A DNA stretch of 64,000 nucleotides from an uncultured Bacteroidales bacterium (GTDB taxonomy: Bacteria > Bacteroidota > Bacteroidia > Bacteroidales > Paludibacteraceae): contig CALAUA010000015.1 of assembly GCA_937891975.1 (NCBI GenBank), positions 145,378-209,377 on the forward strand, in the 5' to 3' direction. The position numbers and the translations under genes are program-made. The stretch's first letter is position 1. Every line of letters begins with the position of its first letter. Below are positions 5,867 through 51,334 of this stretch, piece after piece. The notes under the pieces are model-generated. The model saw only the letters and a list, made by a program, of their open reading frames with translations, ran no database searches and was not told where the DNA came from.

Positions 5867-8800
5867 TTACAAGCGATGTCCCTGCGCGTCGAAAATGCCC
5901 TCCGCGGTACGGATGATGAGCTTACCGTCGATGAGGTATTTCTCAATGCCTTTCGCCTCATCGCCTACATTACCCACTCCTGTGGTCACATCCTTCTGTG
6001 GTTGGATATGGAGCGCAAAGCGATTCTCGTAACTACCAGCAGACAGAGTAATGGTATAATCGTCGAGCAAGAGGTTAGTGCGTGTATTTGTCTCGTAGTC
6101 AATGAGTTCTACCACCATACCCTCTGTGCCGTCAGGCATACGGAAGGTGTACTCACCTTCGGTGGCAATCTTCACGCCAACAGGCACGATAACCTCTTCC
6201 ATTGGTAATGTGTTACCCGCAAATGGGATGCCTTCAGACAATGTATAGATATTAGGTTTGCCGCTATTGAATACTTTGTTGAGGTCTTTGTTTTGGTCGA
6301 AGGTCGTTGTACCATCTTCATCTAAAGCTACAAATGTTTGGTCTTGCTTTTCGCCTTCTGTATTGGCAAGTTCGAGGCGCATGGTTACAGATGAACGTTC
6401 TGCTTGTGCTCTGCGAGGTGCCGCCAATGGTTCAGGCACCGTTTCATTGATAGGGTTCCAAGTAATAGTACCTGCAAACTGCACCATATAGCCGTAGAAG
6501 GATTTGTAGGTAGCAGTCTTACCATCTTCAGGAGTATAGTTATAACTTGTTCGGTTATTATTGTTGTCAAAAGTATAACTATATTGATAACGGAAACTTG
6601 GTGCTTCAGTTAATTCTTTATATTCTGGATCATTATCTTTATCATATTCTTTCACAGTCGCATTATTGTAACTGGTAGTACCAATCATCTTCCAGTTGCT
6701 ATCTTGCAAGTAGCGATTATGGAGAGTAAGAGTACATGGATGATTTGGGTAAGTGACAGTAAGTTGTTGCGTTGACTGCTGCTGCAAATCAAATCCACTA
6801 CCGATAGATGGGAAGTAGAGACGTAGCATAGAGATTATTTCTTTTTGTCCTTCTATAACATCGCCATTTGCATCAGTCTTATCCACTTCTATCTCATTCC
6901 ATGTGGCATTTTTCTTGTCAAATGCGAGCAGATATCCTTCACCTGCCTTCAACGTGTCCTTAGGAGACATCCACTCCCAGAATGTTGCCGTCTCTGCATA
7001 CCAACCCTTTTGAGCGCGAAGGTCACCGCGATAGCGTTGAATACCCCATAATTCCATATAACCATGCACACCAGATATACTACCTACCACGCAGTCAAAT
7101 GGTAAAGTGAACATATATTGCTCTTCATGACGTTCGTCTTCATTTGTACTACCACGGTGCAATTCCATTGCAAAGAATAGACTCTTTAAATTATTAATTT
7201 CACCATTGCCAGATAGTGTAATCTGTGGTACATTTTCATTCTCCTTGCGGATGAAAAGTACATCCGCATTTACTGTTTTATCTGTAGTAATAGTTAAGTC
7301 TGTTGCTATTTCCCAAACAGCTATGATTCGGTTCGTTTTGAAATCATACACTACGCGCACTTTATATACGCCATTATCCGTGCCCGAACCAATAACCGTT
7401 TTCTGAATAGGTGTGCTAGTTTCTTCGCCAGTTACTTCATTGATGCCGTAGCCCAATAAGTGGTTATACACAGTAGTATCAGTACGAGGTGATTTGGCTT
7501 CTACATACAGAGAAGCAGAAGGTGTTCCGTTGGTAATATTTACGTAAACATCTCGCTCATATACCCAGTTGCTGACATCGCGGAATTTATTGCCGTCATT
7601 ATTAGTATTGTTTCCGTATGGTAATTTTTTTGTACATTCCTTATCTGCATATGCATTGTCACAATGCAAATTGAGATAGCTTGCGTCTGCACTACCTTGC
7701 AGAACAGCTCGGCCGAAATAGTTGGTACGTGGGTCATAACCGAAGCGTACATTGATAACTTTACCTGTACCAACCTTGATATCGCCATATTCATTAGTAT
7801 TCTTATCTTGCAACAATTTGCCAGCTAGGTCATCGTTGTAGTCGTTTGCCACGCAGGCACTTACATCTTTACCATCGTAACCTCCAGAGTTCATAGCTTG
7901 TACCCAATAGTGGTTGTAGAACTCACCTTCGCGTGAAACAAATTCAGTGAATGTGCGGCTAGCTTTTTCGGAGTCTGTCCAATCATGAATAGAGTTCCAA
8001 CCCTTGTTGCTGATATCGCCATCTGTACCCCATGTACGGATGTAGAAGTTACCTGAATAAACTGCTACATTGGTAAGACCTGTACCATCTGCATTAAGTT
8101 TTGCTGTATAGACGTTTGACGCTGTGAATGTTTCAGGTGCGATTGTTGCATGCAAATTGCCGTTCTTATACAACATGACTACACCTGAACGGTAATTAAC
8201 TTCATCTTTACCAGGAGCAAAGAATGAGAGAATATCAGAGGTGCTGGTGACTATATTAGAAGAATACTCCTTACCATTTTGCATGACTATCTTCACTTGG
8301 TATTCATCTGCATCCTCCCAGCAATAATCGCCAGAACGTGAAATGGAAGGTTGATTCCCATATCCTTCATTTTTCATCGTATAACATCCATCTGTACTAA
8401 CATCTTTTACATCTGGTGATTTGCGCCAATTGTCATTCATGTTTTCATAAAACACCAAGAAACTTGTTTTTCCGTTAGTGTGTAATGGCACTTCCGCTTG
8501 TAGATATTTATACTTTCCAGACTCCTCATACACAAATTCCAATGCAATATCTGCATTATAACCAGAACTATACCAATAGTGTATCTTAATTTCGGAATTA
8601 TTGTTCCAACCAATATTGTCATATGTTCCTCCATCTGCTATTGGCACCTTCACTTGAATAGTGATGTGCGTATCTTTTTCTACGGTTACTTGGAATTTTT
8701 TGGTAACAGTTTCCTCGTGCAATGTGTAGTTCACAGTGATGGTGGTTGTGCCATCTTCGTGACCATATACGATGATGTTGGTTCCTGACATGATAGCTGT

Positions 8801-11800
8801 TGCAACAGTCGTGTTGGCGCTGCTAACTGTAGCTGTCACATCGCTCAGTTTATTACCCAAACTTACTTGTATAGAAGGTGAAACTATTTTTTGCTCGCCC
8901 TGTGTAAGAGTGATATTGTCAATATTACTTACTGCCAAATCACCAGGGCAATCGGCATTGGTAAGTGTGTAGTTGTTATATCCATTTTGATTAACCTTGT
9001 TATTACTTAATTGATAACATGTATTTTCACTTGGTATCTCGTAGTTGAAGGTTTGATTTGCATCGCTTCCGCCGTTTACGATAAAGTGGTCGTAGTATGG
9101 GTATTTCACCACGAATACGCGCCATGTACCAAAGTGTTGAGCAAAACTCTCACCAGGCCATTCGGTCTTCACATCTGCTGCACCAGCGTCGTCTCCGCGC
9201 CACATATATACATTGCTCAATATGCTATTGGGATCGTTGACCTTGATAGTGACTAATTTATAAACAGCCACTTCGGTACGTACCTCAAATACACGTCCTG
9301 CCACTTCTTCGGTTGTAGCGGTGAAGGTCAAGATACCTACTTGTTGAGCAGGTGTGTATTCGGTTGCATATTTTTCATTATAGGTTGTTGTTAATGTGGT
9401 TTCGTTAACCTTGATAGTTACGTTTCCAGTGTAACCATTGTAGGTGGCACTATATGATACTTCTACGTTGGTTCCTTGTTGTACTTTCTCTAAACTGATT
9501 TCGTCTCCAGGGGTGGTCAAAAGTACCATTTCAGGTGTCAAGACTTGTTGGAAGTAAACCGTGGTGGTAGCTTCGGTTCCCTTCTTTCCGTAAGAGTCTT
9601 TGTAGTAGGTGGTGATAGTGATAGGAGTAACCTCGGTGGTGATGTTCGTTAGGTCAAACGTATTGGCTGTTTGCTCTGTCTCACCTACTTTGTAGTAGGC
9701 AGTCAATCCTGCTACTTCTGTCAGTGGGGTTACTGTCAATCTTACCGTTTCATCGTTGTATAATTGGTAAGGGGTAGCTTGCGCTCCATCGCCTGCAATC
9801 CATTCATTGATTGTCTGCTCCTTATATACGCGCACTGCGGTGTATGTGACTGCAGGTGTTGTTGGTAGAGCGGGGTAGGTGATCTTCACTTGTGGTGCGG
9901 TCAAGGATATACCATCTGCTCCAGACCAACGGATATGAATGGTGTATGAACCTGCTTGCGTTGATTTGAATTTGATTGCGGAATTGGCATCTTTCCAAAT
10001 CTTTACCCAGTCAGCACATGATTGAAGGGCGCTGACAGAATTGCCGTATTCCGCAGAATTATTTGCATAGTCTTTTACTTTGAAACTGTATTCGGTATTT
10101 GCAGCCAAAGTAACGATGCATGCCCAACTGCCATCGCCTTGCTTGGTGAAATATGGATTGTTGCCAGGGAGGGTGTTGGTAGCATGTTTGCTAATCAATT
10201 GGTATCTCTCTGAGAAGGTCGCAACGAGTAATCCATCGCCTATTGTACCATTACCGCTAAGGGTGGTAGTATTGCCTGTGGTAGCAGAACTTACTGCAGG
10301 AGCAGTTGCAGTCCAACTTTGTGTATAATAACCCTCAGCAGGAGTTGCGGTAACAGTAACGGTGGTTTCCACACCCACACTTGCCTCTTGTGGTGATACT
10401 GTTCCCTTGTTATCATCGGATGATTTGATGTCAATAGAGGCTTTGTTTTCAACAAATACTGCTTTCACAGTTACATCCGCATTCACAGTGCAGGTGTAAG
10501 ATGGATCAGTCGATAATTGATTACCACTCCCGTCTGTCCACTTAGAGAAAGTGTAACCAGTATTTGCTTCTTGTGTAAATACAACACTTTTTCCCTTTAA
10601 CACATAGTCGCCAGAAGTAATTGCAACTCCATCCACTTTGGCAGTAACAGTCTTACCCCCCGTCCCCTTACTAAAGGTTACTTTGTATGCCTCTGGATAG
10701 GTTACGGAGAGGTTTTTATTAGAACTGTTGAATGTGAAAGTATAATTGCCTGCGACATCGGTTTTAAGAGTTAAATTATTGCTGCTTGTGCTTAATGTCT
10801 TACTTGACGATGCACGCGTAAGATCTCCACTGCTTGCACCATACCACTCTGAATCATATACAATCTTGAAAGTATATGTGGTGTTCGCGTTTAGGCTACG
10901 AGTGACAGTATAAGTACCCGAGCCAGTCATGTCAAATTCACCTGTATTAGTTGCGTCTGCTGGATTTGCAGCTGATATACGCAATTGATTATATACAGGC
11001 CATGTGACTTCTAAAGTTGGCTTTGAAGAATCATCATAGTTGAGGTGGAAAGTATATTTACCTGCTAGATAAGGCTTAAAGCGTATGTTGTTACTAGCGC
11101 TGGTGGAAAGCGTGAGGTTATTGTTCTCTTTGGTTAGCCAATAATGATCACCACCAGATCCCCAACCTAACCATTTTTTATTGTCATCGGAGCCTGCTGC
11201 ATTATAAATTTTAAATTCCCATTGATTGTCATTAGGAGTTACTTTACTTTGAGGGACATCAATTTCCCAATAAACATCATTAGAATTCGCGTTCCCAGAA
11301 TGCTTTTTCATCATTGTATTTTGATTAGCATTCCATCCTTCAGAAAAAGGTCCAGCATTATCACCTTGTACGTAGTATGTACTTGTTAAATCTTCTGCAT
11401 AATTTGCAACGACTTCAGCAGCTTTGCTATCGCCATTAGAGCGAACAGTGATGTTTGTTGCATCAGCTGCTCCGCCATCGGTGCGGGTACAATTGGTAAG
11501 CGTCCAACCTGTAAAAGTGTAGCCATTGCCTGCTGCAGTAGCTGTGACTGTGGCTGTGGTTTCATAACCTATTGAATTTACTGATGCTGTTGGAACTGCA
11601 TAGCCAGGGTCGCCTGCATCGTATTTATTGGAGGTTGTCAGCGTGGACATGTTTTCCGTAGCAGAAGCAGTCACTATAACCGAACCATTTTTTACGGTTA
11701 CGGTTGTGTTTGCTGTTGTTGCGTTGCCGAATGTAGCGTTTGCTGCTGGATTAGCAGTCCAAGTGCTGAAAGTGTAACCCGTTTTAGGTGTGGCTGTGAT

Positions 11801-12904
11801 ATTGTAGGTGCTTCCTAATGTTACAGGGTCAGTAGAACCACCAACGGTGTTTATTCCATCGCCTGCCAGTACGGTCAAGGAGTGGGTTGCTGTTGAGCGG
11901 AAGTTGGCTTTCAATGTACCTGCGGCAGTTGCAGTGATGGTTGTAGAAGCAGCTGTCGTATTTGCTACAACAACACCTCCTGTAGCTGTCCAATTAACAA
12001 ATTCGTAATTTGCATCTGGAGTGGCAGTGACTGCCGTCGTTGTGACTTGTCCAATAGTCTTATTTCCTAAAGGAGATACTGTTCCGCCAGAGCCTGCTGA
12101 GATAGTGACAGCATATGTATTCTCTGTCCAAATAGGAGTAATTGTTACATTGCTGGTAAGTGTATAGGTTTGAGAAGCGATGTCTGCTGCAGCAATAGTA
12201 GTAGTTGTACTACCATTATTGATTTGTACACCGCCAAAGGTATATCCTGTAGAGGCAGATGCGCTGAATTTAAGAACAGTGAGGTGAATTTTGCTTGCAC
12301 CAGTAGCAATAGTGTTGTTGTCGTAGTCCTTTACGGTTAGTGTGCCACCTGTAGGGCTATTGATTGTGACAGTATAGTCTGATTTAGTAGAAGTAGACCA
12401 ATTGTATACAGTACACTTCGTATCAAAGTGCGTAACTGAAGTAGTCCCATTTGCCTTATAAATTGTAGTTGCGTTCCAAACAGATGTGCGAATATTTGTC
12501 ACATTATTGTTGCCATGGTACACAAATTTATATACATTTTCACCGTTAGAGTCCCACCATTTCTCTTTGCTGACTACCCAACCTGATGCTCCATCCCATG
12601 AATTTCCATTATTCCATCCTTTTGCCAATTTCCAAAGGTACTGTGTACCAGAAACACGAGTCATGGCATAGCAAGATGTATGAGAATCATGACCGATATA
12701 AACGTAACAGTTCGTCCATTTTGATGTGGAGTTATCAAAGTATAAATCCACATTTGATTGGTTGATAGCCGCCCACGCATTACTAACTCCCATTAGTAGG
12801 AGAATGAGGATAGCAGTTGTTCGTATACCTTTGGTATATCCTTGTAATAGGTTAAGAAATTGTTTCGCCTTCTTCTCGGCGCAATTTGTAAATGTTTTAT
12901 TCAT
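5867..12904 (-). CDS. Giant cell-surface protein with divergent InlB B-repeat modules and a T9SS-like C-terminal tail
   Basis: Uninterrupted 2345-aa ORF. Leader MNKTFTNCAEKKAKQFLNLLQGYTKGIRTTAILILLLMGVSNAWA. Many ~75-aa modules of type Y.VT....GGTVSP.......TATP..GY.F..WT. Tail ends KYLIDGKLIIRTAEGIFDAQGHRL. Confidence 0.85.
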   Translation of the reverse strand: MNKTFTNCAEKKAKQFLNLLQGYTKGIRTTAILILLLMGVSNAWAAINQSNVDLYFDNSTSKWTNCYVYIGHDSHTSCYAMTRVSGTQYLWKLAKGWNNGNSWDGASGWVVSKEKWWDSNGENVYKFVYHGNNNVTNIRTSVWNATTIYKANGTTSVTHFDTKCTVYNWSTSTKSDYTVTINSPTGGTLTVKDYDNNTIATGASKIHLTVLKFSASASTGYTFGGVQINNGSTTTTIAAADIASQTYTLTSNVTITPIWTENTYAVTISAGSGGTVSPLGNKTIGQVTTTAVTATPDANYEFVNWTATGGVVVANTTAASTTITATAAGTLKANFRSTATHSLTVLAGDGINTVGGSTDPVTLGSTYNITATPKTGYTFSTWTANPAANATFGNATTANTTVTVKNGSVIVTASATENMSTLTTSNKYDAGDPGYAVPTASVNSIGYETTATVTATAAGNGYTFTGWTLTNCTRTDGGAADATNITVRSNGDSKAAEVVANYAEDLTSTYYVQGDNAGPFSEGWNANQNTMMKKHSGNANSNDVYWEIDVPQSKVTPNDNQWEFKIYNAAGSDDNKKWLGWGSGGDHYWLTKENNNLTLSTSASNNIRFKPYLAGKYTFHLNYDDSSKPTLEVTWPVYNQLRISAANPADATNTGEFDMTGSGTYTVTRSLNANTTYTFKIVYDSEWYGASSGDLTRASSSKTLSTSSNNLTLKTDVAGNYTFTFNSSNKNLSVTYPEAYKVTFSKGTGGKTVTAKVDGVAITSGDYVLKGKSVVFTQEANTGYTFSKWTDGSGNQLSTDPSYTCTVNADVTVKAVFVENKASIDIKSSDDNKGTVSPQEASVGVETTVTVTATPAEGYYTQSWTATAPAVSSATTGNTTTLSGNGTIGDGLLVATFSERYQLISKHATNTLPGNNPYFTKQGDGSWACIVTLAANTEYSFKVKDYANNSAEYGNSVSALQSCADWVKIWKDANSAIKFKSTQAGSYTIHIRWSGADGISLTAPQVKITYPALPTTPAVTYTAVRVYKEQTINEWIAGDGAQATPYQLYNDETVRLTVTPLTEVAGLTAYYKVGETEQTANTFDLTNITTEVTPITITTYYKDSYGKKGTEATTTVYFQQVLTPEMVLLTTPGDEISLEKVQQGTNVEVSYSATYNGYTGNVTIKVNETTLTTTYNEKYATEYTPAQQVGILTFTATTEEVAGRVFEVRTEVAVYKLVTIKVNDPNSILSNVYMWRGDDAGAADVKTEWPGESFAQHFGTWRVFVVKYPYYDHFIVNGGSDANQTFNYEIPSENTCYQLSNNKVNQNGYNNYTLTNADCPGDLAVSNIDNITLTQGEQKIVSPSIQVSLGNKLSDVTATVSSANTTVATAIMSGTNIIVYGHEDGTTTITVNYTLHEETVTKKFQVTVEKDTHITIQVKVPIADGGTYDNIGWNNNSEIKIHYWYSSGYNADIALEFVYEESGKYKYLQAEVPLHTNGKTSFLVFYENMNDNWRKSPDVKDVSTDGCYTMKNEGYGNQPSISRSGDYCWEDADEYQVKIVMQNGKEYSSNIVTSTSDILSFFAPGKDEVNYRSGVVMLYKNGNLHATIAPETFTASNVYTAKLNADGTGLTNVAVYSGNFYIRTWGTDGDISNKGWNSIHDWTDSEKASRTFTEFVSREGEFYNHYWVQAMNSGGYDGKDVSACVANDYNDDLAGKLLQDKNTNEYGDIKVGTGKVINVRFGYDPRTNYFGRAVLQGSADASYLNLHCDNAYADKECTKKLPYGNNTNNDGNKFRDVSNWVYERDVYVNITNGTPSASLYVEAKSPRTDTTVYNHLLGYGINEVTGEETSTPIQKTVIGSGTDNGVYKVRVVYDFKTNRIIAVWEIATDLTITTDKTVNADVLFIRKENENVPQITLSGNGEINNLKSLFFAMELHRGSTNEDERHEEQYMFTLPFDCVVGSISGVHGYMELWGIQRYRGDLRAQKGWYAETATFWEWMSPKDTLKAGEGYLLAFDKKNATWNEIEVDKTDANGDVIEGQKEIISMLRLYFPSIGSGFDLQQQSTQQLTVTYPNHPCTLTLHNRYLQDSNWKMIGTTSYNNATVKEYDKDNDPEYKELTEAPSFRYQYSYTFDNNNNRTSYNYTPEDGKTATYKSFYGYMVQFAGTITWNPINETVPEPLAAPRRAQAERSSVTMRLELANTEGEKQDQTFVALDEDGTTTFDQNKDLNKVFNSGKPNIYTLSEGIPFAGNTLPMEEVIVPVGVKIATEGEYTFRMPDGTEGMVVELIDYETNTRTNLLLDDYTITLSAGSYENRFALHIQPQKDVTTGVGNVGDEAKGIEKYLIDGKLIIRTAEGIFDAQGHRL

Positions 12905-12975: not shown

Positions 12976-13959
12976 TTAAATGTAATTTTGAGCAATGTTC
13001 TCTATTATCTGTGCTAAGGCAGATGAATATTCAAAGTCCATATCAAGAAGCAGTGGTATTGGTACATTATGCTTGTAATAATATGGATGAGGGTTAGGAG
13101 CCAATATTATTTCGTAGTTATACCAAAAATACAATTCAAATAATTTATTGTAAGTTTCACCACGTGTTCTACAAGCGGTAAGTATAATATCGCATCCTAT
13201 CTGCTCAAAATCATCTATGGATTCAGGCATACGAGAATCTGGATCTCCTTGGCTCTCAACACCTATTAAACAATTATTTATATTAACAACACCTTGAACA
13301 TCCCCATCATCTTTAATAAGGTTATTAGGATACTTATTTGATAATATATTCCACACTCCTTTGATTGAGGTAGATTTGCCCATATATCCATGACCACAAT
13401 CAGCAATAATATAACGAGGTCTACTATAATCAACAGGGAGCTCACGCATCGTATTCTCAATTTGAAAGCCCCTATTATTTACCTTTAATTCATACCATTT
13501 ATGATCCAAGTTATCCAAAAGTTGTAGGTAACATGTAAATCCCAATGCTTCAGAAGAAAACGTATGTAATTGTTCTTTACTCCACTGGATTCCTACGATA
13601 TTGGCCACACGCCGTAAAGCATCAACGAGTTGTTCTGGTTCCCATTCTGCATAGTTTTGCAGTATGTTTGCTACTTCCTTAGCAAATGCAATAACTTTTT
13701 GAGGACGAGACAATGCTTCTTGTATTTCCTCTTTGAGCACCCCTGGAATATTTTCTAATTCTTGTTGATTAGCTACAATATGTGGTTGTTTATCCCCGTA
13801 CAAAGGTATTTCTATTTCTACCTTTTTTCGTTTCCCGTTTACAAGTATCGGCTGTTTTGTTTTCTTATGAATATGAACCGAAGTAATATCCATCGGACGA
13901 CCATCTCCCCTCTGATGGCTATCAATGCGCAGTATCTGATTATTAATTAATGGTTTCAT
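12976..13959 (-). CDS. Hypothetical protein with a C-terminal P-loop (Walker A) domain, AT-rich
   Basis: 327-aa ORF 72 nt upstream of giant gene 1 on the same strand. GHGYMGKST fits GxxxxGK[ST] and CLIGVESQGD is Walker-B-like. A sampled 60-nt line counted 19 G+C, clearly below neighbouring genes. Confidence 0.5.
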   Translation of the reverse strand: MKPLINNQILRIDSHQRGDGRPMDITSVHIHKKTKQPILVNGKRKKVEIEIPLYGDKQPHIVANQQELENIPGVLKEEIQEALSRPQKVIAFAKEVANILQNYAEWEPEQLVDALRRVANIVGIQWSKEQLHTFSSEALGFTCYLQLLDNLDHKWYELKVNNRGFQIENTMRELPVDYSRPRYIIADCGHGYMGKSTSIKGVWNILSNKYPNNLIKDDGDVQGVVNINNCLIGVESQGDPDSRMPESIDDFEQIGCDIILTACRTRGETYNKLFELYFWYNYEIILAPNPHPYYYKHNVPIPLLLDMDFEYSSALAQIIENIAQNYI

Positions 13960-14490: not shown

Positions 14491-14913
14491 TTATGCCGTC
14501 TGCTTCTTGCGTAACCTAATAACCACCGCCGCCACTGCTGCAAACAATAGCAATATCCATGGTTCGCCTACAGGGCTGCCACCTTGCGTACCAGGGTCAC
14601 CACCTCCGGCAAGATTCTTCCTCCCACTTATTCCTTTTGGACCGCTATTGCTATTGCCACTCTCGCTGGGCGGAGTGTCATTAAACGGCTCATACACAGT
14701 GCCTTGGTATGCCTTGTACTCGGTGGAGAGTGCCTCTGCATTACCCATCACACGATAGTCGCTCTTCATCGCACCACCATACGCTCCCCACTGCTGTGAG
14801 GAAGCGGTCGGTTGTGTATAACCGCCAACTTGATAAGAGTTAGATGCATTGTAGGATTGAGCGTAAACCTCTACGCCAAAAGCAAATAAAATCAGTAAAC
14901 ATGCGCATTTCAT
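14491..14913 (-). CDS. Small secreted Gly/Ser/Pro-rich protein with a PEP-CTERM-like C-terminal anchor (expressed copy)
   Basis: ORF trimmed to MKCACLLILFAFGVEVYAQ at 14913. The C-terminus PVGEPWILLLFAAVAAVVIRLRKKQTA is motif + TM helix + basic tail. A -7 box lies upstream at 15007-15014. Confidence 0.65.
   Translation of the reverse strand: MKCACLLILFAFGVEVYAQSYNASNSYQVGGYTQPTASSQQWGAYGGAMKSDYRVMGNAEALSTEYKAYQGTVYEPFNDTPPSESGNSNSGPKGISGRKNLAGGGDPGTQGGSPVGEPWILLLFAAVAAVVIRLRKKQTA
14657..14817. repeat. Inverted repeat IR-L of the putative inversion switch
   Basis: Reverse complement of 15342-15502 with about 8 mismatches by eye. Lies inside the CDS. Confidence 0.85.
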
Positions 14914-15006
14914 AACTGCGCCAAGAGAGTGTGTCTGTTCAGTATTATTAACTAGCATAATTGTTAGTGTTTTTTATCAAATTTAAAGTTTTCACATAAA
15001 GCGTGG

Positions 15007-15014
15007 CAAAGTTA
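15007..15014 (-). promoter_or_regulatory. -7 box (TAACTTTG on the minus strand) for the small secreted protein gene
   Basis: CAAAGTTA about 90 nt upstream of the ATG at 14913. Located inside the segment bracketed by IR-L and IR-R. Confidence 0.5.
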
Positions 15015-15231
15015 CAACATTTTTTTGAATCACACAAGTATTACTATGAAATTTATTTCATTCTTTCTTGCAAACGATTGCAAACAGGGATAGTTACGTA
15101 CAAAAAAAGGAGGCATCGCCTCCTGTGATTTCAGTTAGATTTGGATAGAAAAGAGGGTTATTGAAGTTCATTACACTACAATGGTATATCTGTATAAAAA
15201 CAGTGATTTGAGCAAATTTTTCATACAAAAA

Positions 15232-15319
15232 GTGCTCAAAATAAGAAAATTTATCTCATTTGAGCACAAACAAGACAACAAAATTGCTCAAAACGAGGAA
15301 TTTTATCTCGTTTGAGCAC
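15232..15319. promoter_or_regulatory. Two tandem copies of a ~36-nt hairpin element
   Basis: gtgctcaaa-(18 nt)-tttgagcac and ttgctcaaa-(27 nt)-tttgagcac, with a half-site tttgagcaaa at ~15208. Confidence 0.5.
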
Positions 15320-15713
15320 GAAAGCGCGCGTTTTTTGTATCACACAACCGACCGCTTCCTCACAGCAGTGGGGAGCGTATGGTGGTGCGATGAAGAGCGA
15401 CTATCGTGTGATGGGTAATGCAGATGTACTCTCAACTGAGTACAAGGCATACCAAGGCACTGTGTATGAGCCGTTTAATAACACTCCTCCAAGCGAGGGT
15501 GGAAGTGGTCCTAGAGGCATCTCTGGCAGACGCAATGGCAACTCTTGGAGTGGTCCTGGTATGGGTGAAGGCAATGGCGGTGAAGAAGGTGATGACCCTA
15601 ATCGTGATGAAGGTGAGCCTGTAGATGGTCCCGTTGGCGAACCCTTTGTGCTGTTGCTGTTTGCGGCAGTGGCGGCACTTTTCGTGGCACGTCGCCAACG
15701 CCAAGCAGCATAA
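15312..15713 (+). other. Promoterless, signal-peptide-less alternative 3' cassette of the small secreted protein
   Basis: Shares TQPTASSQQWGAYGGAMKSDYRVMGNA..LSTEYKAYQGTVYEPFN and the PVGEPFVLLLFAAVAALFVARRQRQAA tail type with 14491-14913. It has only a TTG start, no leader peptide, and a different middle. Confidence 0.6.
15342..15502. repeat. Inverted repeat IR-R of the putative inversion switch
   Basis: Reverse complement of 14657-14817. Confidence 0.85.
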
Positions 15714-16002: not shown

Positions 16003-16848
16003 ATGGAGCAAAGTGAAATCAAATTATTCGAAGGACAAAACATCCGTTACGTTTGGGATGAACAGAAGGAGCAATACTTCTTCTCTGTGGTAGATGTCAT
16101 CCAAGTGTTGACCGATAGCCCACGCCCTCGCAAGTATTGGAACGCGCTGAAAACCAAGCTGCAAGCAGAAGGAAGTGAAGTGTCCCAAAATATGGGACAG
16201 TTGAAATTGCCTGCTCTAGATGGCAAGATGCGTCTTACCGACGTGGCTACAACGGAGCAGTTGTTGCGCCTCATTCAGTCGGTGCCGAGCAAGAAAGCTG
16301 AGCCATTCAAGTTGTGGTTGGCTGAGGTCGGTCGTCAGCGATTGGAGCAGTTGCAAGACCCCGAGCAGAGTATAGAGCAGGCGATTCGTGATTACCGTCG
16401 CTTGGGGTATTCGGAGGCATGGATTAACCAGCGTATCAAGACCATTGAGGTACGCAAGGGCTTGACCGATGAATGGAAACGTGGCGGTATGCAGGAGGAG
16501 CGCGACTATGCGATTTTAACAGACATTATCTCCAAGGCATGGAGTGGAATGACGACTCGCGAGTATAAGCAGCACAAGGGACTGCGCAAAGAGAGTTTGC
16601 GCGATAACATGACCAATGTTGAGCTGATGCTCAATGGTCTTGCGGAGGCGGCTGCTACGGAGTTGAGTCAGCGCGAGAACCCACAAGGTTTTAGCGAGAA
16701 CGCGCAGATAGCGCAACGCGGTGGCAATGTAGCCCATGTGGCTCGTGAGCAACTGGAGCATGAGTTGGGAACTACGGTGATTTCTGACAAACGCGCGCTG
16801 CATTTCACGACTCCGCCCGATGAATTGCCATTGAGCACCGAAGAGTAA
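16003..16848 (+). CDS. Bro-N domain protein (antirepressor / DinD-like)
   Basis: N-terminus FEGQNIRYVWDEQKEQYFFSVVDVIQVLTDSPRPRKYW and EPFKLWLAEVGRQRLEQLQDPE match the widespread Bro-N / DinD-like family as I recall it. Confidence 0.65.
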   Translation: MEQSEIKLFEGQNIRYVWDEQKEQYFFSVVDVIQVLTDSPRPRKYWNALKTKLQAEGSEVSQNMGQLKLPALDGKMRLTDVATTEQLLRLIQSVPSKKAEPFKLWLAEVGRQRLEQLQDPEQSIEQAIRDYRRLGYSEAWINQRIKTIEVRKGLTDEWKRGGMQEERDYAILTDIISKAWSGMTTREYKQHKGLRKESLRDNMTNVELMLNGLAEAAATELSQRENPQGFSENAQIAQRGGNVAHVAREQLEHELGTTVISDKRALHFTTPPDELPLSTEE

Positions 16849-16881
16849 TTTGATTGCATAGCAATCTAACGGCTATATTCT

Positions 16882-16922
16882 ACAAGTTCTTAGTCTTTAC
16901 GGATTAGGAACTTGTTTGTTTT
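16882..16922 (+). terminator. Rho-independent terminator after the Bro-N gene
   Basis: acaagttcttagtc-tttacg-gattaggaacttgt followed by ttgtttt. Confidence 0.55.
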
Positions 16923-17145
16923 ATAACTATGAGCAAACAAAATACAATATAACAACGGCGTTGCCCCTTACTCCCGTAGGGGCTTCATAGGAACTCACCG
17001 AAGGGGCAAGGGACTTTGACCAGGGATGAATAGAGCAAAAACATAAACGCGGAGCTACTAACGTGAGCGAAGCGAACCTAAGAGCGATCTTTGACATAGT
17101 GGAATTACTAAAAATGATTCTGGCATTTTGATGACACAAAACGCC

Positions 17146-17226
17146 AAAGTCGTTCATAAAAGTGTGTCATTTTATGCAAAAGTCGTTCATGAAAATGCGA
17201 AAAATCACAAAAAGTCGTTCATAAAA
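17146..17226 (+). repeat. Three phased direct repeats AAAGTCGTTCATRAAA
   Basis: gtcgttcat at 17149, 17182 and 17214 (32-33-nt spacing), just upstream of the -7 box at 17261. Confidence 0.8.
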
Positions 17227-17260
17227 ATGTAAATCATTTGCATATATCATTTATTTTCAG

Positions 17261-17268
17261 TACCTTTG
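17261..17268 (+). promoter_or_regulatory. -7 box TACCTTTG for the DUF4143 ATPase gene
   Basis: Canonical TAnnTTTG 35 nt upstream of the ATG at 17304. Confidence 0.55.
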
Positions 17269-17303
17269 CGGCGAATTTAAAAACATATCAATAAAACATA
17301 CAT

Positions 17304-18903: not shown

Positions 18904-21900
18904 ATGAATACAACATTTACAAATTACGCCGAGAAGAAGGCGAAACAAATTCTTAATCTATTACAAGGCTATACCAAAGGTATACGAATAACTGCCATCC
19001 TCATTCTCCTACTCATGGGAGTTAGTAATGCGTGGGCGTGGACAGCGCACTTTTCTCTTATGGGCGATCCTGTTGGTAATAATTGGCAGAATGATCGAGA
19101 TTTCATGATTAACACAAGTACAGGAACTACGGACGAGTGGTATATCTATGCATATGTAGCAAATAATCAATATTTTGCTTTAAACAATGGAAGTAATCAG
19201 TACGGACCTTCAAGCAACGGTCAGGCTATAAAAAACGGCACAGGTGGAGGTCAGGGCAATTATAATACAAATTCATGGAAATTCACAGGAACTAGTGGAA
19301 TCATAAAGATTTGCTGTGCGGAAAGTAATGACCGTGAATGGTATCCATGGGTATGGGTAGAAGAATCCGCACCAACTATCAAATTTAAACATCCATGGAA
19401 TGGTGGTAGTTGGAGTGAACAAACAGCAACAAAACAAAATGACGGGACATATACCTACGATGGTAAATATGGAAATAACAAAGGCTTTAATGCAGGTCCT
19501 TCTGGTAAGTACAAATATAACGCAAGTCAAACAACCGTAGAAGGTTCACCCGCTACAGGAGATATGTGTAGATTTATTTGGAATCCTGTTGGTTATGTAC
19601 AAGGAGGAGCAGAAACAAAAGCATCTGGAACATTTAAAATTGTTAAACTTTGTTCGCTCACCTATGATGGCAATGGAAAAACAGGAGGAACAGTACCTTC
19701 TGCTACTAACAACCAACTATATAACACATCTATTACATTATCATCCGAAACTTTAACTAAGGCTGGTTATACACATACTGGTTGGAATACCAAAGCAGAT
19801 GGCACAGGAACCCATTATGACAAAGGAGCATCCTACACATTAACAGCAGCGAGTACCACTCTCTATGCAGAATGGACATCTACCGCTCCTACCATAACCA
19901 TTTCTACTGAAAAAACATACTTAAGAACAGCTTATGATAAATTAATTTTAAAGATTTATTACTCAAATATCCCAGAAGGATATACTTATCGTGTCCATGC
20001 AACTCCAGAGGCTTACTTCAATGGTAATGAGAATGGGGATAATGTTGATCGGGTGAGTATTTCAGGTAATGGAAACACTACTTTTGTATCTAATGGATAT
20101 CTTGCCCAGAATCAATATACTGTAGAAGTGATATTATGGAATAATGGTGGTGCAACAGATATAATATCAAATTCCCTTTCCATCACGGTAGAACCTCAAT
20201 TATCTGTTCAAACACGAGCTCGTTTTAATAATCAAATAAACACAACTGCCGCAGAGCACCCACAACCAGAATGGGTACATCCTTCGCAGAATGTAGGAGA
20301 AACAATTACAGCTAGCGAACCGAAACCAGGTTATACATTTGCGGGTTGGACTGCTAATGATGATAACCTTATTAAGTTTGATAATCCTAATTCACTTACA
20401 ACTATTGTTAAATCGAAAGTAAATGGTAATAACAATGCAGTGGCTTACGCCAACTATACCCGTGTAGAAACCTATGCCTTTATACAAGGTCGTTTTCGTG
20501 TGAATAGTGCATCACGAAATCAGATGACATATACTTATGATGATGGTGGTCAATGGAACGAAGGGAGCACTAATATCCAAATGGAATATGATGATACAAA
20601 CTCACGTTTCTATCTTCACACATATATGAAGCCTAAAGAGCTAACAGAGCCCCATGGTACTAATTGTGGTGAATGTAAGCCTTATTTTTATATTAAAACA
20701 AGTACCTCTAGTAGTTCTCTTACGAATGCTACACCATATTGGTCTTCATCCAAACAATATATAATAGAAGCGGGAAAAGAGAACAAAAAGGAATTAACGA
20801 ATTCTTCTAGCAATGTGGTTAACAATAACTTACGCTTTAACACTCAAGATGAATCAGGTTATGTAATATTATATTTCGATCAACAATACATCTGGTATGA
20901 GTTGGAGCATAGATTAGAATACGATGCCAACGGTGGTACAGGTAGTGCACCAAGCAGAACGTATCATCTTAAAGGTTCCACAACTACTACCGCTTCGGAC
21001 AACATATTCACTCGTGACGGCTATGATTTCCAGGGTTGGAACACCAAAGCAGATGGTACGGGCAATCAGTATGAGGCAGAAGCAAACATTACGATAGAGG
21101 CAAACACAACTCTCTACGCACAATGGGCAAAACCAACATTCACCGTTACACTAGACCCACAGGGTGGTACAGACGGAACTACTTCTGTTGAAGCAACTTA
21201 TGGAGAAGAAATGCCCGAAGCAACGATGCCTCAGCGTGAGGGATTTACTTTTGGCGGATATTTCACAGAGACTAATGGCGGTGGCACTCAGTATTACAAT
21301 GCTGATGGCTCTAGTACGAAGAATTGGGATATCAAAGAACCTAAAACCCTCTACGCCAAATGGATACAACAATATGTGATTGTGGGTAATGGTAAAGGTA
21401 GTTGGCTGAATGGTGCTAACTGGATAGAAAGTGTGATAGCAGATGATAGCTTTGACGTTACCAAGCAGTCAAGCAATATTATTGATGGTAGTGTTACCTA
21501 CTCTGCTTGTCCTGCTGGACTGAAGAACTTCCGCATTGTGCCATGGGGTAAATGGGATACAAATCATGGTAAAGAGCAGCTAACTAGTTGCAATGTACCT
21601 TCCTACACCAATGAAGACAATAATATTGCGTTCGTAACTGTGGCGGAAGCTGCCATCACAATCGGATTTGATGGCACGAATATTACAGTACAAGTAGATT
21701 ATGATGCTGAAGATTTAGCCAATGTAAAAGCCGAAGTCGTCGCAGACACAAAACGAATGTTCTATTTTGGAGACGAGTTAACAGATCGATCAAGGCAGTA
21801 TTTATACGTTAATGAACTTGAAAATAGCACAGATAACCACGTTGTTACAGAAACGAAAGGATTACTTTTAGAAGGTGTAGGTGCACAAAAGTGGCTAGCT

Positions 21901-24900
21901 GTGGCGATACTGCCTCCTAAGACATATAACATTTCTAATGATGCTAACTGGGGAGGTGTTTCTACAGGTGAAGTTGTTCAAGCGGGTGCAATATATGCAT
22001 GGCACGGCAATCAAGTGATGGTAAAAACAGCAGGCACCCCGCCGACATTAGGAGATGTAAGCATTAGAGTAGGAAGAGCCAACTCTGGATTAACTGCATC
22101 TGCTGGCGGCTCCTCTATCGGACAGGCACAAACCATCACCGATTACTACTATAAAAAGGAGGGTGAGAGTACTTGGACTAAGTTTGACCCGAATAACGTA
22201 AGTGCTTTGCCAGTAGGTATATACAAGGTACACGCGCTCGCACACGATGGCAATATCTACGTGCGCACCGCAGAACCTGCTACTTTGACGATATATGACG
22301 ATTACACCATCACCTATAAAGATCAAGGCGGTAGTGCTTTCACTGGTGCACACGAAGCTGGTTGTCCTGCTATACACCTCTACGGACAGACAACTGAACT
22401 GAAATCAGCAACCAAAACTGGTTATGAGTTTGGCGGTTGGTTTACAAGTCCAGATTGTACAGGCGAACCTATCACTACACTTGGAGCAACAGATTATACT
22501 GCAGACATTACCCTCTACGCTAAGTGGACTGCCAAGACTTATCCCGTTACCCTTGACCAAACTGGTGCAAAAACACCAGGAACTCCCTCTGTAACTGCTA
22601 CTTATTATGCTGCAATGCCTCACATAGAAACTCTACCTACTCCAAAAGATGGCTATGCATTTGCAGGATATTACGACCAAAAAGATGGCGCAGGTACACA
22701 ATATTATGACGCAGAGGGCGCGAGCGCGCACGTGTGGGATAAGGCAAATGATGGTATTCTCTATGCAAAATGGGAGGCAATCACTTACACCATCACTTAT
22801 CATCTCAACGGTGGAAGTGGCGCCGCAAACAGCACTTACACCATCGAATCTGAGGATATTATCTTACCAACCCCTACTAAAGCAGGTCACACCTTTGGCG
22901 GTTGGTATGACAACGAAGGTTGTACAGGAGAAGCTATTACCAAGATAGCTCAAGGTTCTACTGGCCACAAAGAGTATTGGGCAAAGTGGACAATCAATAG
23001 TTATACCATCCTCTTTGGTACAGAAGATGGCGGAACTGTAAGTGCTACTGTAGGTGGGAATGCAATCAGTAGTGGTACTTCACTTACGTATGGTACACAA
23101 GTTCAATTGACTGCCACTCCCGAACCTGGGTATTCTTTCAGCGAATGGACAAATGGTAGTGGCAATGAGGTTTCTACATCCAATCCTTATACAGTGACCA
23201 TAGACGGCAATATCACCCGAAATGCTGTCTTTATTGAAGCGACTACCCTGTATCTCAAACCAAACGCTGATTGGCTGAAAGACGGTGCACGCTTCGCTGC
23301 GTATGCATTTGATGGAGGAGAGGCAACTTGGTATGATATGGAAGAAGTGGGATGTTCTGGTATTTATTCATGTGCCATTCCGGGAAGTTATAATAAGGTT
23401 ATTTTTGGGCGCATGAATCCAAACAAAACGGAGAATAATTTTGATAATGAAGTAAGATGGGAACAGACCATTGATTTAAGTATTCCAACAGATGGTACTA
23501 ATTTATTCACTGTCACAAACAAGCCAGTAGGAAGCAACTGGAATGGTGAATGGGAATCCGAGCCATTTAATCCTCTAGCATATACTATTACGCTGGAAGG
23601 TGAAGGTGGTACGATAGAAATCACACATGAAGGTGGTACAGCTACGGAGAATACTACTGTAGCACCCAATACCATCATCACCGTTGCTCTTTACCCTCAT
23701 AGCGGTTACACGGTAGGTACACCTAAAATAAAGATTGGTTCCAATGCTGCAGCTAACTTGGTAGTAGGGCAAAAATATACTATTTGCGGACCTACTACGA
23801 TTACCGCTAATTGGGTTGAAACGAAATATGCTGTAGCAGTTAATTCAAACAATAATACTTACGGAACGGTAAGTCCAAGCTCTGTACAAGTGGGACAATA
23901 CACTCCTTCTCAGAAGATTACTGCTACGCCGAAAGCTGGTTATCGTTTTGTGAATTGGACAGCCACCGAAGGTGTGTCAATCAATTCCCCAATCTTTGAA
24001 TCCACCACCATCACTGCTTCCCAAGCAGGTACACTAACCGCCAACTTCGAAAAAGACCCTACCGTTTACCTCAAGCCAAGTGCTGTTTGGAAAAAAGATG
24101 GTGCACGTTTTGCAGTGTATTGGTGGAAGGATACAAAGAACGGTTGGATAGATATGACCACTGTCGGCTGTAACGACGAATATTATACAGCCGAATTGCC
24201 TGCAGGAGTTACGAATTTTAAGTTTGTTAGGTTAAAACCTAGTGGTGGGCATGCTTTTAGCAATGCATGGGATCAGACTATAGATCTTACCTTGCCAACT
24301 AACGCCAACAACCTATTTGCAATGAAAAAATTGCATCTCAATATAGGAGAATGGAATAAAGATAATCAGAAATGTTATGCGGCACACTTCTACAATTCAT
24401 CAAATGAAAGTAAGACCATTAATTTGACCGAAGGTAATGATCCGATGGTTTATTACTGCGATATACCAACGGATAAACATTATACGAATGTTGTGTTCTA
24501 TCGTGTGAATCCTAGTAATACTGGAGAAATATGGCATCAAACAAATGACCTGACTATAGACGGCGATTTCTACACGATTACCTCATTCGGTGGAGATGGT
24601 AACAAAGCAGAAGGTACTTGGACGTTACAGAGTATAGGTGAATGGTTGGCGTTGCCGTTGCCTACTATCACCTACACTCAACCAGAGAATGGTACGATTA
24701 TCGTTAAGACCATACGAGGTGTGGAAATACCTAGCGGAACAAAAGTTCCATGGGATACGCAAGTCCTCGTGTCGGTACAACCGAATACAGGATATTCTGT
24801 TGAATATGCTAATATCGATATTGGTGGTACACAGCATGATGTTCAATCGGGTACACCTTACACCATCTGCGGAAATACAACTATCTCTGCTACCATGGAA

Positions 24901-29462: not shown

Positions 29463-29481
29463 TGGAACTTAATAGTAGGTG

Positions 29482-29510
29482 TCGCGATTCGGGAGTCGGG
29501 AATTAGGAAT
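29482..29510. repeat. Heptamer word array TCGGGAG/TCGGGAA (E-word) at the regulator / recF junction
   Basis: tcgcgattcgggagtcgggaattaggaat. Confidence 0.85.
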
Positions 29511-29514
29511 AGTA

Positions 29515-30639: not shown

Positions 30640-30679
30640 TTTAATTAACTCAATTATTAATCTTAAAAACAAAAAAAGT

Positions 30680-32158: not shown

Positions 32159-32178
32159 TCACTATTTCATCATACTAA

Positions 32179-32211
32179 AATAGGCTACCTTTTGTAGGTA
32201 GCCTATTTTTT
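32179..32211 (+). terminator. Rho-independent terminator
   Basis: taggctacc / ggtagccta stem followed by TTTTTT. Confidence 0.8.
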
Positions 32212-32256
32212 GTTTAGAGAACGCTCACAAAGCGAACTTCTGTTTAGTGTTTAGAG
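32211..32256. repeat. B-word / hairpin / B-word composite element (copy 2)
   Basis: tgtttagagaa-cgct-cacaa-agcg-aacttctgtttagtgtttagag. The stop of gene 32251..32607 lies in the last word. Confidence 0.8.
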
Positions 32257-32844: not shown

Positions 32845-32884
32845 AAAAATGCACTTTTTTTTGAGAAAAGTGCATCTTTTTGTT
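32845..32884 (-). terminator. Hairpin terminator downstream of the WYL gene (possibly bidirectional)
   Basis: atgcactttt / aaaagtgcat stem flanked by A-run and T-run. Confidence 0.6.
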
Positions 32885-32915: not shown

Positions 32916-32928
32916 GTTTAAGTTTACC

Positions 32929-51328: not shown

Positions 51329-51334
51329 TTCTTG

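What the first reader, a model, noticed from the sequence alone, without database searches (positions are those of the whole stretch)
14494..14574. PEP-CTERM-like tripartite sorting signal in a phylum where T9SS tails are the norm
Both cassettes end with P-V-G-E-P, then a ~15-residue hydrophobic helix (WILLLFAAVAAVVI / FVLLLFAAVAALFV), then a basic cluster (RLRKKQ / ARRQRQ). The second copy is at 15630-15710. This motif + TM + Arg/Lys layout is that of exosortase (PEP-CTERM), rhombosortase or sortase substrates. Conservation of exactly this part between otherwise divergent cassettes argues it is functional. The upstream region is Gly/Ser/Pro-rich and low-complexity, as in many PEP-CTERM proteins. 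No exosortase-like gene is in the window.
Basis: partly seen in the sequence, partly recalled or inferred. Interest (0 to 1): 0.6.

Follow-up and report, generated by a model that had tools for sequence, protein, structure and literature searches.

The report
Exosortase-style tail on small envelope proteins
A small, disordered exported protein of an uncultured gut Paludibacteraceae bacterium ends in a strongly conserved Pro-Val-Gly-Glu motif, a membrane helix and a basic tail; this is an uncatalogued variant of the exosortase-type "PID-CTERM" sorting tails, the genome has one exosortase-like enzyme that could cut it, but cutting is not shown.

Summary
Both cassettes end in PVGEP, a hydrophobic helix and a basic cluster, at the stated coordinates.

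**Evidence of function**
- The first 16 tail codons differ by 8 synonymous changes and 2 conservative replacements.
- SPVGEP is the most conserved stretch of the family and sits next to its most variable linker.
- A profile of the tail finds four ORFs in this genome (37-63 bits; noise below 9).
- It finds 273 protein clusters in public data. Nearly all are 54-249 aa and end with the tail.

- The genome has one exosortase/archaeosortase-family gene, 84 kb upstream of the window, with invariant Cys/Arg/His. Its best match is exosortase X, below cut-off.
- Other proteins carry the tail, each next to a large secreted-protein gene.
- In the family, 56 of 58 genomes with the tail have the enzyme.
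- Five enzyme-positive genomes from five other genera all have related tails. Five enzyme-negative genomes have none.

**Cautions**
- No curated tail model matches, neither PEP-CTERM nor PID-CTERM.
- The enzyme gene is not adjacent.
- In relatives the small protein is fused in frame to the giant protein, so the tail is internal there.
- Cleavage is untested.

This scan has already noted PID-CTERM/XrtX-like mini-proteins on other DNA many times. Verdict: a new variant of a known kind, of moderate interest.

The parts
14491..14958 (-). ORF A, 155 aa. It has a signal peptide (MLVNNTEQTHSLGAVMKCACLLILFAFGVEVYA|QSYN), a disordered Ser/Gly/Pro/Thr-rich passenger of about 95 aa with conserved YQGTVYEPF..PPSE and GISGRKN motifs, a variable linker, and then the tail.
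   Evidence: ORF list. 237 homologues. Alignment A1. AlphaFold2 gives confident helices only at 11-42 and 133-154.
14560..14574 (-). Signature motif P-V-G-E-P of ORF A. The family consensus is S-P-[VIL]-G-[ED]-[PA].
   Evidence: It is the most conserved block of the family (mean majority fraction 0.90, against 0.39 for the linker just before it). P129 and G131 are invariant; E132 and P133 are at least 90% conserved.
14518..14559 (-). Hydrophobic helix WILLLFAAVAAVVI of ORF A.
   Evidence: AlphaFold2 helix 133-154, pLDDT 78-86. F139, A140 and A141 are invariant.
14494..14517 (-). Basic cytoplasmic end RLRKKQTA of ORF A.
   Evidence: R150 is invariant. Across homologues the ends fall into a few distinct types.
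15312..15713 (+). ORF B, a silent cassette that lacks the signal peptide. Homology to ORF A starts at about 15342. It has a longer acidic linker and its own tail.
   Evidence: After inversion in silico the product is 170 aa and 97.6% identical over its full length to the public protein P0011.
15630..15710 (+). Tail of ORF B: PVGEP (15630-15644), helix FVLLLFAAVAALFVA (15645-15689), basic end RRQRQAA (15690-15710).
14642..14817 (.). Left arm of the 176-nt, 91% inverted repeat. It lies inside the coding sequence.
15342..15517 (.). Right arm of the inverted repeat.
14818..15341 (.). 524-nt invertible core. It carries the 5' end of the gene (signal peptide) and presumably its promoter.
   Evidence: The promoter is inferred, not shown.
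5867..12904 (-). Giant secreted repeat protein 1 (2345 aa), on the side that ORF A faces. Genes for tail proteins lie next to such genes throughout the genus.
   Evidence: Five Flg_new_2 (InlB B-repeat) stretches. Its C-terminus matches no T9SS model.
18904..27897 (+). Giant secreted repeat protein 2 (2997 aa), on the side that ORF B faces.

Best explanation
**What it is.** ORF A encodes a small envelope protein. A signal peptide exports about 95 disordered residues to the periplasm. The protein is then held in the inner membrane by a C-terminal module: S-P-[VIL]-G-[ED]-[PA], a helix of about 15 residues, and a basic cytoplasmic end.

**Classification.** This module is a lineage-specific variant (Paludibacteraceae) of the exosortase-type sorting tails that NCBIfam curates as PID-CTERM.

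**Proposed mechanism.** The genome's single XrtX-like exosortase is a small polytopic membrane enzyme with conserved Cys, Arg and His. I propose that it recognises the motif at the outer face of the membrane and cuts there. That would release the disordered passenger from its helix or transfer it onward.

**Partnership.** These small proteins are dedicated partners of very large secreted repeat proteins. They are encoded immediately beside them and, in some species, fused to them.

**Shown versus inferred.**
- Shown: the architecture, selection on the peptide sequence, reuse of the tail on otherwise unrelated small proteins, pairing with and fusion to giant protein genes, presence of the enzyme, and co-occurrence at family level.
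- Inferred: recognition by this enzyme, cleavage, and the fate of the passenger.
For: 1. The tripartite tail is present on both cassettes at the stated coordinates. ORF A also has a signal peptide.
2. Purifying selection acts on the motif and helix. In 16 codons there are 8 synonymous changes and 2 conservative changes, at 59% nucleotide identity. SPVGEP is the most conserved block and abuts the least conserved linker.
3. The tail is reused.
   - Two other small ORFs in this genome carry it: C21:69351-69731 and C15:245950-246408, scoring 42 and 37 bits, with noise below 9.
   - With the tail removed, these proteins show no significant similarity to ORF A.
   - 273 clusters at 50% identity carry it in 1.84 billion representatives. 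Of 146 new ones examined, 138 have it at the extreme C-terminus.
4. The enzyme is present.
   - One gene, at G000:C15:61806-62369 (-), 188 aa.
   - TIGR04178 64.5 bits (cut-off 23) and PF09721 37.5 bits (cut-off 25.7). The best subfamily is XrtX at 87.8 bits.
   - C100, R141 and H160 are invariant in 19 homologues.
5. Co-occurrence across 301 family genomes.
   - The enzyme is in 227. The tail is in 58 at E <= 0.01, and 56 of those have the enzyme.
   - All 28 genomes with a tail hit at E <= 1e-5 have the enzyme.
   - The two exceptions are a 22-aa frame matching the helix only, and a genome that is 82% complete.
6. A broader tail profile gives a clean contrast.
   - It finds genuine small signal-peptide proteins ending in P[VILA][GD]x + TM + basic in all 5 enzyme-positive genomes from 5 other genera, about 13 proteins in all.
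   - It finds none in 5 enzyme-negative genomes from 3 genera.
7. Sister genera carry intermediate forms: PVGGG, PVGSG, PLDGG and PIDD. One reaches the PID-CTERM cut-off (29.9 bits against 26).
Against: - No curated tail model recognises the tail. NF046080 (PID-CTERM) has no match in the genome at E <= 10. Only sub-threshold Loki-, MYXO- and GPS-CTERM hits were reported.
- The enzyme is below the XrtX cut-off (87.8 against 170), as it is in all 227 family genomes that have it.
- The curated XrtX- and XrtF-associated partner proteins are not found above cut-off.
- The enzyme gene sits between tsaD and tnaA. It is 98 kb from ORF A and is not adjacent to any tail gene, except loosely in G204 (about 1.6 kb).
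- The enzyme is much more widespread (227 of 301) than the tail detected with the narrow profile (58 of 301).
- Co-occurrence is confounded by phylogeny. 27 of the 58 tail-positive genomes are in the window's own genus, counting the window's genome (26 of 32 without it), and the enzyme-negative genera may reflect a single loss.
- In four loci in three genomes of the genus, and in public proteins P0272, P0280, P0337 and P0364, the small protein continues in frame into the giant protein. The tail is internal there.
- The passenger is never a folded domain or an enzyme.
Confidence: 0.55

Rival explanations
1. The module is a plain stop-transfer anchor and nothing cuts it. The small protein is a bitopic inner-membrane protein that works with the neighbouring giant protein, for example as an escort or tether during its export. 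On this view the P-x-G-[ED] motif and the AAxAA-like helix are conserved because they cap the helix and pack against another helix, such as the giant protein's own signal peptide.
For: - In-frame fusions have the order signal peptide, passenger, P[IL]G[DE], TM, basic loop, second signal peptide, giant protein. There the module acts as the first half of a membrane hairpin and is not C-terminal.
- Tail genes are strictly paired with large secreted-protein genes: four of four other candidates in this genome and many related loci.
- The helix itself is unusually conserved (F139, A140, A141 invariant).
- The enzyme gene is not linked to tail genes.
- No curated sorting model matches.
Against: - The sharp peak of conservation falls exactly on a Pro/Gly/acidic motif at the membrane surface. 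The same motif occurs on otherwise unrelated passengers. Both are typical of enzyme-recognised sorting signals rather than generic anchors.
- No genuine tail was found in the five enzyme-negative genomes examined, nor at E <= 1e-5 in any of the 74 enzyme-negative family genomes.
- The fusions do not exclude cleavage. The motif would still face the periplasm.
Confidence: 0.3
2. The tail is a sorting signal, but a different membrane protease processes it. Candidates are the genome's rhomboid, a CPBP-type or site-2-like protease, or an uncharacterised membrane protein.
For: - One rhomboid gene is present (PF01694, 104.7 bits).
- The exosortase-like gene shows no linkage to tail genes.
Against: - The rhomboid is not a rhombosortase (25.3 bits against a cut-off of 84), and the tail lacks the Gly-Gly signature.
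- The tail has no invariant Cys, which myxosortase-type signals require.
- No conserved membrane-protease gene was seen next to the tail genes in the loci read.
Confidence: 0.07
3. Chance or annotation artefact: the similarity of the two tails only reflects a recent duplication of one cassette.
For: The two cassettes are copies of one gene and share a 176-nt repeat upstream.
Against: - The tail coding regions are only 59% identical in DNA yet conserved in protein.
- 116 of 120 listed homologues keep the motif.
- Unrelated proteins share the tail.
Confidence: 0.01

Closest known systems
PID-CTERM sorting domain with exosortase X (XrtX) and its associated membrane protein (NCBIfam NF046080, NF046081, NF046082). 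These are curated models. I found no published study of them.
   Same: - Same layout: signal peptide, short passenger, a Pro-hydrophobic-Gly/Asp motif, a TM helix and a Lys/Arg end.
- Found in Bacteroidota.
- The genome's only exosortase-family protein scores best against XrtX.
- Sister genera carry intermediate tails (PVGGG, PLDGG, PIDD), and one passes the PID-CTERM cut-off.
- Earlier notes of this scan report PID-CTERM mini-proteins beside large secreted proteins. Those are unchecked leads, but the same pairing was seen here.
   Different: - The motif is P-[VIL]-G-[ED]-[PA] followed by an aromatic residue, not P-I-D-G-G.
- NF046080 finds nothing in this genome at E <= 10 and passes its cut-off in only 1 of 301 family genomes.
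- The enzyme scores 87.8 bits against a 170-bit cut-off, and no family genome passes.
- No XrtX-associated protein is found above cut-off.
- The enzyme gene is not next to a substrate gene.
- Passengers are longer (median protein length 136 aa).
- Some copies are fused to the giant protein.
- One copy sits under an invertible tail-swapping switch.
PEP-CTERM / exosortase (EpsH, XrtA) system of Gram-negative bacteria (Haft et al. 2006 and 2012, as cited in PMC10936215)
   Same: - Tripartite C-terminal signal with a Pro-containing acidic motif, a TM helix and an Arg/Lys cluster.
- An N-terminal signal peptide.
- Often low-complexity passengers.
- Several substrates per enzyme.
- An enzyme of the same superfamily.
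   Different: - No PEP-CTERM model hit.
- The motif is PxGE rather than PEP.
- The enzyme has 188 aa and scores only 18 bits on the 8-TM EpsH model, against a cut-off of 105.55.
- No link to an exopolysaccharide locus was seen.
- Substrates are few (about 3 loci per genome) and are tied to giant protein genes.
Exosortase F (XrtF) of Flavobacteriia
   Same: - A small Bacteroidota exosortase whose substrates are unknown. PMC10936215 states that they are predicted to be unlike PEP-CTERM, and that deletion mutants lose surface colonisation and biofilm.
- The enzyme here matches XrtF second best (56 bits).
   Different: - Below the XrtF cut-off of 90 bits.
- The XrtF-associated protein TIGR04127 is not found (13.9 bits against 35).
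Mycoplasma pulmonis vsa-type expression-site inversion, as context for the two cassettes
   Same: One promoter plus 5' coding end is joined by DNA inversion to alternative promoterless 3' cassettes. Both orientations are seen in public data.
   Different: Here the swapped part is the linker plus the membrane tail of a small envelope protein. No recombinase gene is nearby.

Membership tests
PID-CTERM sorting domain (NF046080) | Score at or above the curated cut-off (26 bits) on the 25-position model | tested here: not met
   There is no match in the whole genome at E <= 10. hmmscan of ORF A, ORF B and four paralogues lists no NF046080 hit.
PID-CTERM sorting domain (NF046080) | Tripartite layout (Pro-hydrophobic-Asp/Gly motif, TM helix, basic end) at the extreme C-terminus of a signal-peptide protein | tested here: met
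   In some relatives the module is internal because of fusion.
PID-CTERM / XrtX system | A cognate exosortase X (NF046081, cut-off 170 bits) in the same genome | tested here: not met
   The single exosortase-family protein scores 87.8 bits. XrtX is the best subfamily but the score is below cut-off. None of 301 family genomes passes.
PID-CTERM / XrtX system | XrtX-associated membrane protein (NF046082, cut-off 75 bits) | tested here: not met
   The best hit is 20.6 bits, at C14:94558-94854.
Exosortase/archaeosortase superfamily (the enzyme) | Signature domain TIGR04178 / PF09721 over cut-off, with conserved Cys, Arg and His | tested here: met
   64.5 bits against 23, and 37.5 against 25.7. C100, R141 and H160 are invariant in 19 sequences. 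That these are the catalytic residues is inferred from the family literature.
Exosortase-type sorting signal (generic) | The same tail on several otherwise unrelated proteins of one genome | tested here: met
   Four ORFs score 37-63 bits, against noise below 9. With the tail removed, no pair is significant (best E 0.02). All passengers are short and of low complexity.
Exosortase-type sorting signal (generic) | The species distribution of the tail is nested within that of the enzyme | tested here: inconclusive
   56 of 58 tail-positive genomes have the enzyme, and 28 of 28 strong ones. Five of five enzyme-positive genomes have related tails, against none of five enzyme-negative genomes. The direction is as expected, but the lineages are not independent and 75% of the family has the enzyme.
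Exosortase-type sorting signal (generic) | Proteolytic removal of the TM helix and basic end by the enzyme | not testable with these tools
   This needs proteomics or genetics.
PEP-CTERM (TIGR02595) | Model hit with a P-E-P motif | tested here: not met
   No hit is listed at E <= 10. The motif is P-V-G-E-P.
GlyGly-CTERM / rhombosortase | Rhombosortase (TIGR03902, cut-off 84 bits) and a Gly-Gly motif | tested here: not met
   The only rhomboid scores 25.3 bits. There is no Gly-Gly signature before the helix.
T9SS C-terminal domain | TIGR04183 / TIGR04131 / NF033708 hit at the C-terminus | tested here: not met
   No hit for ORF A or ORF B. The tail is a TM helix, not a beta-sandwich domain.

The most novel reading that the evidence does not exclude
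The orphan small exosortases of Bacteroidota have dedicated substrates: short disordered proteins encoded beside, or fused to, giant secreted adhesin-like proteins. On this reading, cutting at the P-x-G-[ED] motif hands the disordered segment to an envelope acceptor. It would then serve the giant protein, for example as its tether or as part of its export route. That would link two sorting systems that are thought to be separate. The in-frame fusions would be the 'Rosetta stone' for the link. The inversion switch would let the cell swap the linker and tail.
Probability: 0.2. Interest if true: 0.75.

Novelty: new variant of a known kind. Interest (0 to 1): 0.5.

Why it matters
- **An open question.** The substrates of the small Bacteroidota exosortases are not known. 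PMC10936215 says this explicitly for XrtF. The enzymes matter for surface colonisation in the one species where they were deleted.
- **A concrete candidate set.** This locus provides a tail motif that current models miss. The tail is present in 273 protein clusters and restricted to one family of gut bacteria.
- **A new link.** The tail proteins are partnered with giant secreted proteins, up to in-frame fusion.
- **A practical consequence.** The curated PID-CTERM and XrtX models cover only part of a wider family. Automatic annotation therefore leaves these proteins as 'hypothetical'.
- **If the tail is only an anchor.** The conserved pairing with giant proteins would still define an unstudied two-gene module.

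Tried and rejected
- **Curated tail models.** NCBIfam and Pfam scans of ORF A, ORF B and four paralogues gave only sub-threshold Loki-, MYXO-, GPS-, JDVT- and Heimdall-CTERM hits. I rejected these as matches to a generic TM helix plus basic end.
- **Rhombosortase.** Rejected.
- **XrtF system.** The enzyme is below cut-off and the partner protein is absent.
- **Co-evolution test.** I asked whether enzymes in genera with PID-like tails score higher on the XrtX model. They do not: all 227 score about 40-106 bits. The test is uninformative.
- **Case-control on the 30 best T9SS-CTD loci per group.** No small tail ORF was found within 1.5 kb in either group. The test is uninformative.
- **Order-wide scan.** The tail was found only in the window's own family, so co-occurrence could not be tested more widely.
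- **Calling the window's giants T9SS cargo.** Their C-termini hit no T9SS model. Only the partner of the C15:245950 gene reaches TIGR04183 (23.1 bits against 23). I therefore call them large secreted repeat proteins.
- **C14:305193-305609 (PVGDM...HNRK) and C22:67134-68063 (PIPSG...RRKQK).** Both look similar by eye but score only 8 and 5 bits on the tail HMM, so I did not count them as members.

Full report
**1. What is at the coordinates**

Window 14494-14574 on the minus strand translates to PVGEPWILLLFAAVAAVVIRLRKKQTA. Window 15630-15710 on the plus strand translates to PVGEPFVLLLFAAVAALFVARRQRQAA.

- The first is the end of ORF A (14491-14958, minus strand, 155 aa). ORF A starts with a signal peptide whose end, VYA|QSYN, is invariant in the family. 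The Gln at +1 fits the 'Q-rule' of Bacteroidota signal peptidase I substrates. That rule comes from my own knowledge and was not tested.
- The second is the end of ORF B (15312-15713, plus strand). ORF B is a copy that lacks the signal peptide.

The upstream halves of the two copies form a 176-nt inverted repeat, 91% complementary (14642-14817 and 15342-15517). A 524-nt core between the arms holds the 5' end of the gene.

Inverting that core in silico gives a 170-aa protein. It is 97.6% identical over its full length to P0011, a protein from a public assembly. The reciprocal truncated cassette also exists, as P0014. ORF B is therefore a usable alternative 3' half. An earlier report of this scan (e1-3844128) reached the same conclusion about the switch.

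**2. Is the tail more than chance?**

- A strict pattern finds only these two ORFs in the 2.07-Mb genome.
- The two tail-coding stretches share 48 of 81 nucleotides. Their first 16 codons differ by 8 synonymous changes and only 2 conservative replacements.
- In an alignment of 29 homologues, SPVGEP is the most conserved block (mean majority fraction 0.90). The linker just before it is the least conserved (0.39) and varies in length. The helix scores 0.73 and the basic end 0.56.
- 116 of the 120 listed homologues keep P-[VIL]-G-[ED].

AlphaFold2, run with this alignment, is confident only for the signal-peptide helix (11-42) and the tail helix (133-154). Residues 42-129 are below pLDDT 50. The passenger is therefore a disordered, Ser/Gly/Pro/Thr-rich segment.

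**3. Other carriers of the tail**

*In this genome.* A tail-only HMM gives four hits: ORF A at 60.7 bits, ORF B at 50.9, C21:69351-69731 at 42.1 and C15:245950-246408 at 37.0. Nothing else scores above 8.7 bits. With the tail removed, these proteins are not significantly similar to each other.

*In public data.* Against 1.84 billion representative proteins, the profile finds 273 clusters at E <= 0.001.

- Of 146 new ones examined, 138 carry the tail at the extreme C-terminus. They are 54-249 aa long, with a median of 136.
- The motifs are PVGE (61), PIGE (40), PIGD (19), PVGD (9), PLGD (7) and PLGE (4).

*Across the order.* In 381 genomes from about 148 families, the tail was found only in the window's own family. 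Record titles name that family as uncultured gut and rumen Paludibacteraceae.

**4. Genomic company**

The tail genes lie immediately beside genes for very large secreted repeat proteins.

- In this genome one lies behind a 1227-aa gene (C21) and another behind a 1794-aa gene (C15). Two look-alike tails lie in front of 2239-aa and 651-aa genes.
- In the window, ORF A and ORF B face the two giant genes (2345 and 2997 aa).
- The same pairing recurs in related loci.

In four loci in three other genomes of the genus, the small protein runs in frame into the giant protein. The order is signal peptide, passenger, P[IL]G[DE], helix, basic loop, second signal peptide, giant protein. Independent gene calls show the same fusions: P0272 (2016 aa), P0364 (1819 aa), P0280 and P0337. 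This ties the small proteins functionally to the giants. It also shows that the module can work when it is not C-terminal.

One caveat applies. The giants of the window match no T9SS C-terminal domain model. Only one partner protein reaches TIGR04183, and barely.

**5. Is there a sorting enzyme?**

Yes. The genome is 99% complete and has one exosortase/archaeosortase-family gene, at G000:C15:61806-62369 (minus strand, 188 aa).

- It scores 64.5 bits on TIGR04178 (cut-off 23) and 37.5 bits on PF09721 (cut-off 25.7).
- Its best subfamily is exosortase X (87.8 bits, cut-off 170), followed by XrtF (56 bits, cut-off 90).
- Cys100, Arg141 and His160 are invariant in 19 homologues.
- It lies between tsaD and tnaA, 84 kb upstream of the window, with no tail gene beside it.
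- The curated XrtX- and XrtF-associated partner proteins are not found.
- The single rhomboid is not a rhombosortase.

**6. Co-occurrence**

*Narrow profile, 301 family genomes.*

- The enzyme is in 227. It is present in all 32 genomes of the window's genus and was not found in genera g28 (0 of 30), g22 (0 of 13), g5 (0 of 6) and g21 (0 of 3).
- The tail profile hits 58 genomes at E <= 0.01, and 56 of them have the enzyme. All 28 genomes with a hit at E <= 1e-5 have it.
- The two exceptions are a 22-aa frame that matches the helix only, and a genome that is 82% complete.

*Broad profile, five genomes per group.* This profile was built from the diverse tails seen in the family.

- It finds genuine small signal-peptide proteins ending in P[VILA][GD]x, a helix and a basic end in all five enzyme-positive genomes, drawn from five other genera. 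There are about 13 such proteins, including a canonical-looking PIDD.
- It finds none in five enzyme-negative genomes from three genera. The best hits there are internal helices of 334-599-aa proteins.

The direction is what a tail-enzyme link predicts. The lineages are not independent, however, and three quarters of the family has the enzyme. I therefore rate this as supportive, not decisive.

**7. Relation to known classes**

- No PEP-CTERM hit was reported.
- The curated PID-CTERM model finds nothing in this genome and passes its cut-off in only 1 of 301 family genomes.
- Sister genera nevertheless show a graded series from PVGE through PVGGG, PVGSG and PLDGG to PIDD.
- No enzyme in the family passes the XrtX cut-off.

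Tail and enzyme are thus uncatalogued relatives of the PID-CTERM/XrtX pair.

The lead to PID-CTERM came from earlier notes of this scan. Those notes report such mini-proteins beside large secreted proteins in many other genomes. I tested the models myself and do not count the notes as evidence.

The literature I could read states that the substrates of Bacteroidota exosortases are still unknown (PMC10936215).

**8. Verdict**

- Most likely (0.55): a lineage-specific exosortase-type sorting tail on dedicated small partners of giant secreted proteins, cut by the XrtX-like enzyme.
- Main rival (0.30): an uncleaved membrane anchor whose conserved motif serves helix capping or helix packing. The fusions and the lack of gene linkage favour this reading.
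- Cleavage has not been observed, so the choice needs an experiment.

Noticed in passing
Related genomes: G145:C31 (about 51250-57000), G242:C9:22346-28735 and 28861-34461, G274:C3:300994-303129; public proteins P0272, P0364, P0280, P0337: The small tail protein is fused in frame to the downstream giant secreted protein. The result is one polypeptide with two signal-peptide-like segments separated by the tail helix and a basic loop of 7-40 residues.
   Followed up: partly
window 5867-6000 (-) and 27760-27897 (+): Both giants end in a shared C-terminal stretch (...KYLIDGKLIIRTAEGIFDAQGHRL). The same stretch recurs on large proteins in related loci. It matches no T9SS C-terminal domain model in NCBIfam or Pfam, so how these proteins are exported or anchored is open.
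   Followed up: partly
homologues P0001-P0120 of ORF A: The cytoplasmic ends fall into a few discrete types: RLRKKQTA, ARRQRQAA, AWRQKRRAQV, AIRKKEPTPALPKGKE, AWRQRRAVLRG, VRNKEPRTKTNQ and YRKRIVSQNNN. Each type combines with different linkers and N-terminal parts. This looks like mosaic exchange between cassettes.
   Followed up: no
window 14620-14650 (-), 15510-15540 (+); G000:C22:67134-68063: A short motif P-[KR]-G-I-S-G-R-[KR]-N lies about 20-45 residues before the tail in ORF A and ORF B. Arg and Asn are invariant or nearly so in the family. The motif also occurs in an otherwise unrelated 306-aa protein that ends in PIPSG + TM + RRKQK and lies in front of a 651-aa secreted protein.
   Followed up: no
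G000:C15:60378-63470 (outside the window); G204:C18:66705-70637: The exosortase-like gene keeps the same neighbour, tsaD, in both genomes read. In G204 a tail gene plus giant gene lies only about 1.6 kb from that tsaD-exosortase pair. This was the one case of near-adjacency seen.
   Followed up: partly
window 12976-13959 (-): This 327-aa ORF lies between ORF A and giant gene 1. It has no Pfam match at E <= 0.001 and has no counterpart on the giant gene 2 side.
   Followed up: no
window 16003-18605 (+): A Bro-N domain protein and an AAA_14/DUF4143 ATPase lie between ORF B and giant gene 2. No recombinase gene was found near the invertible segment.
   Followed up: no
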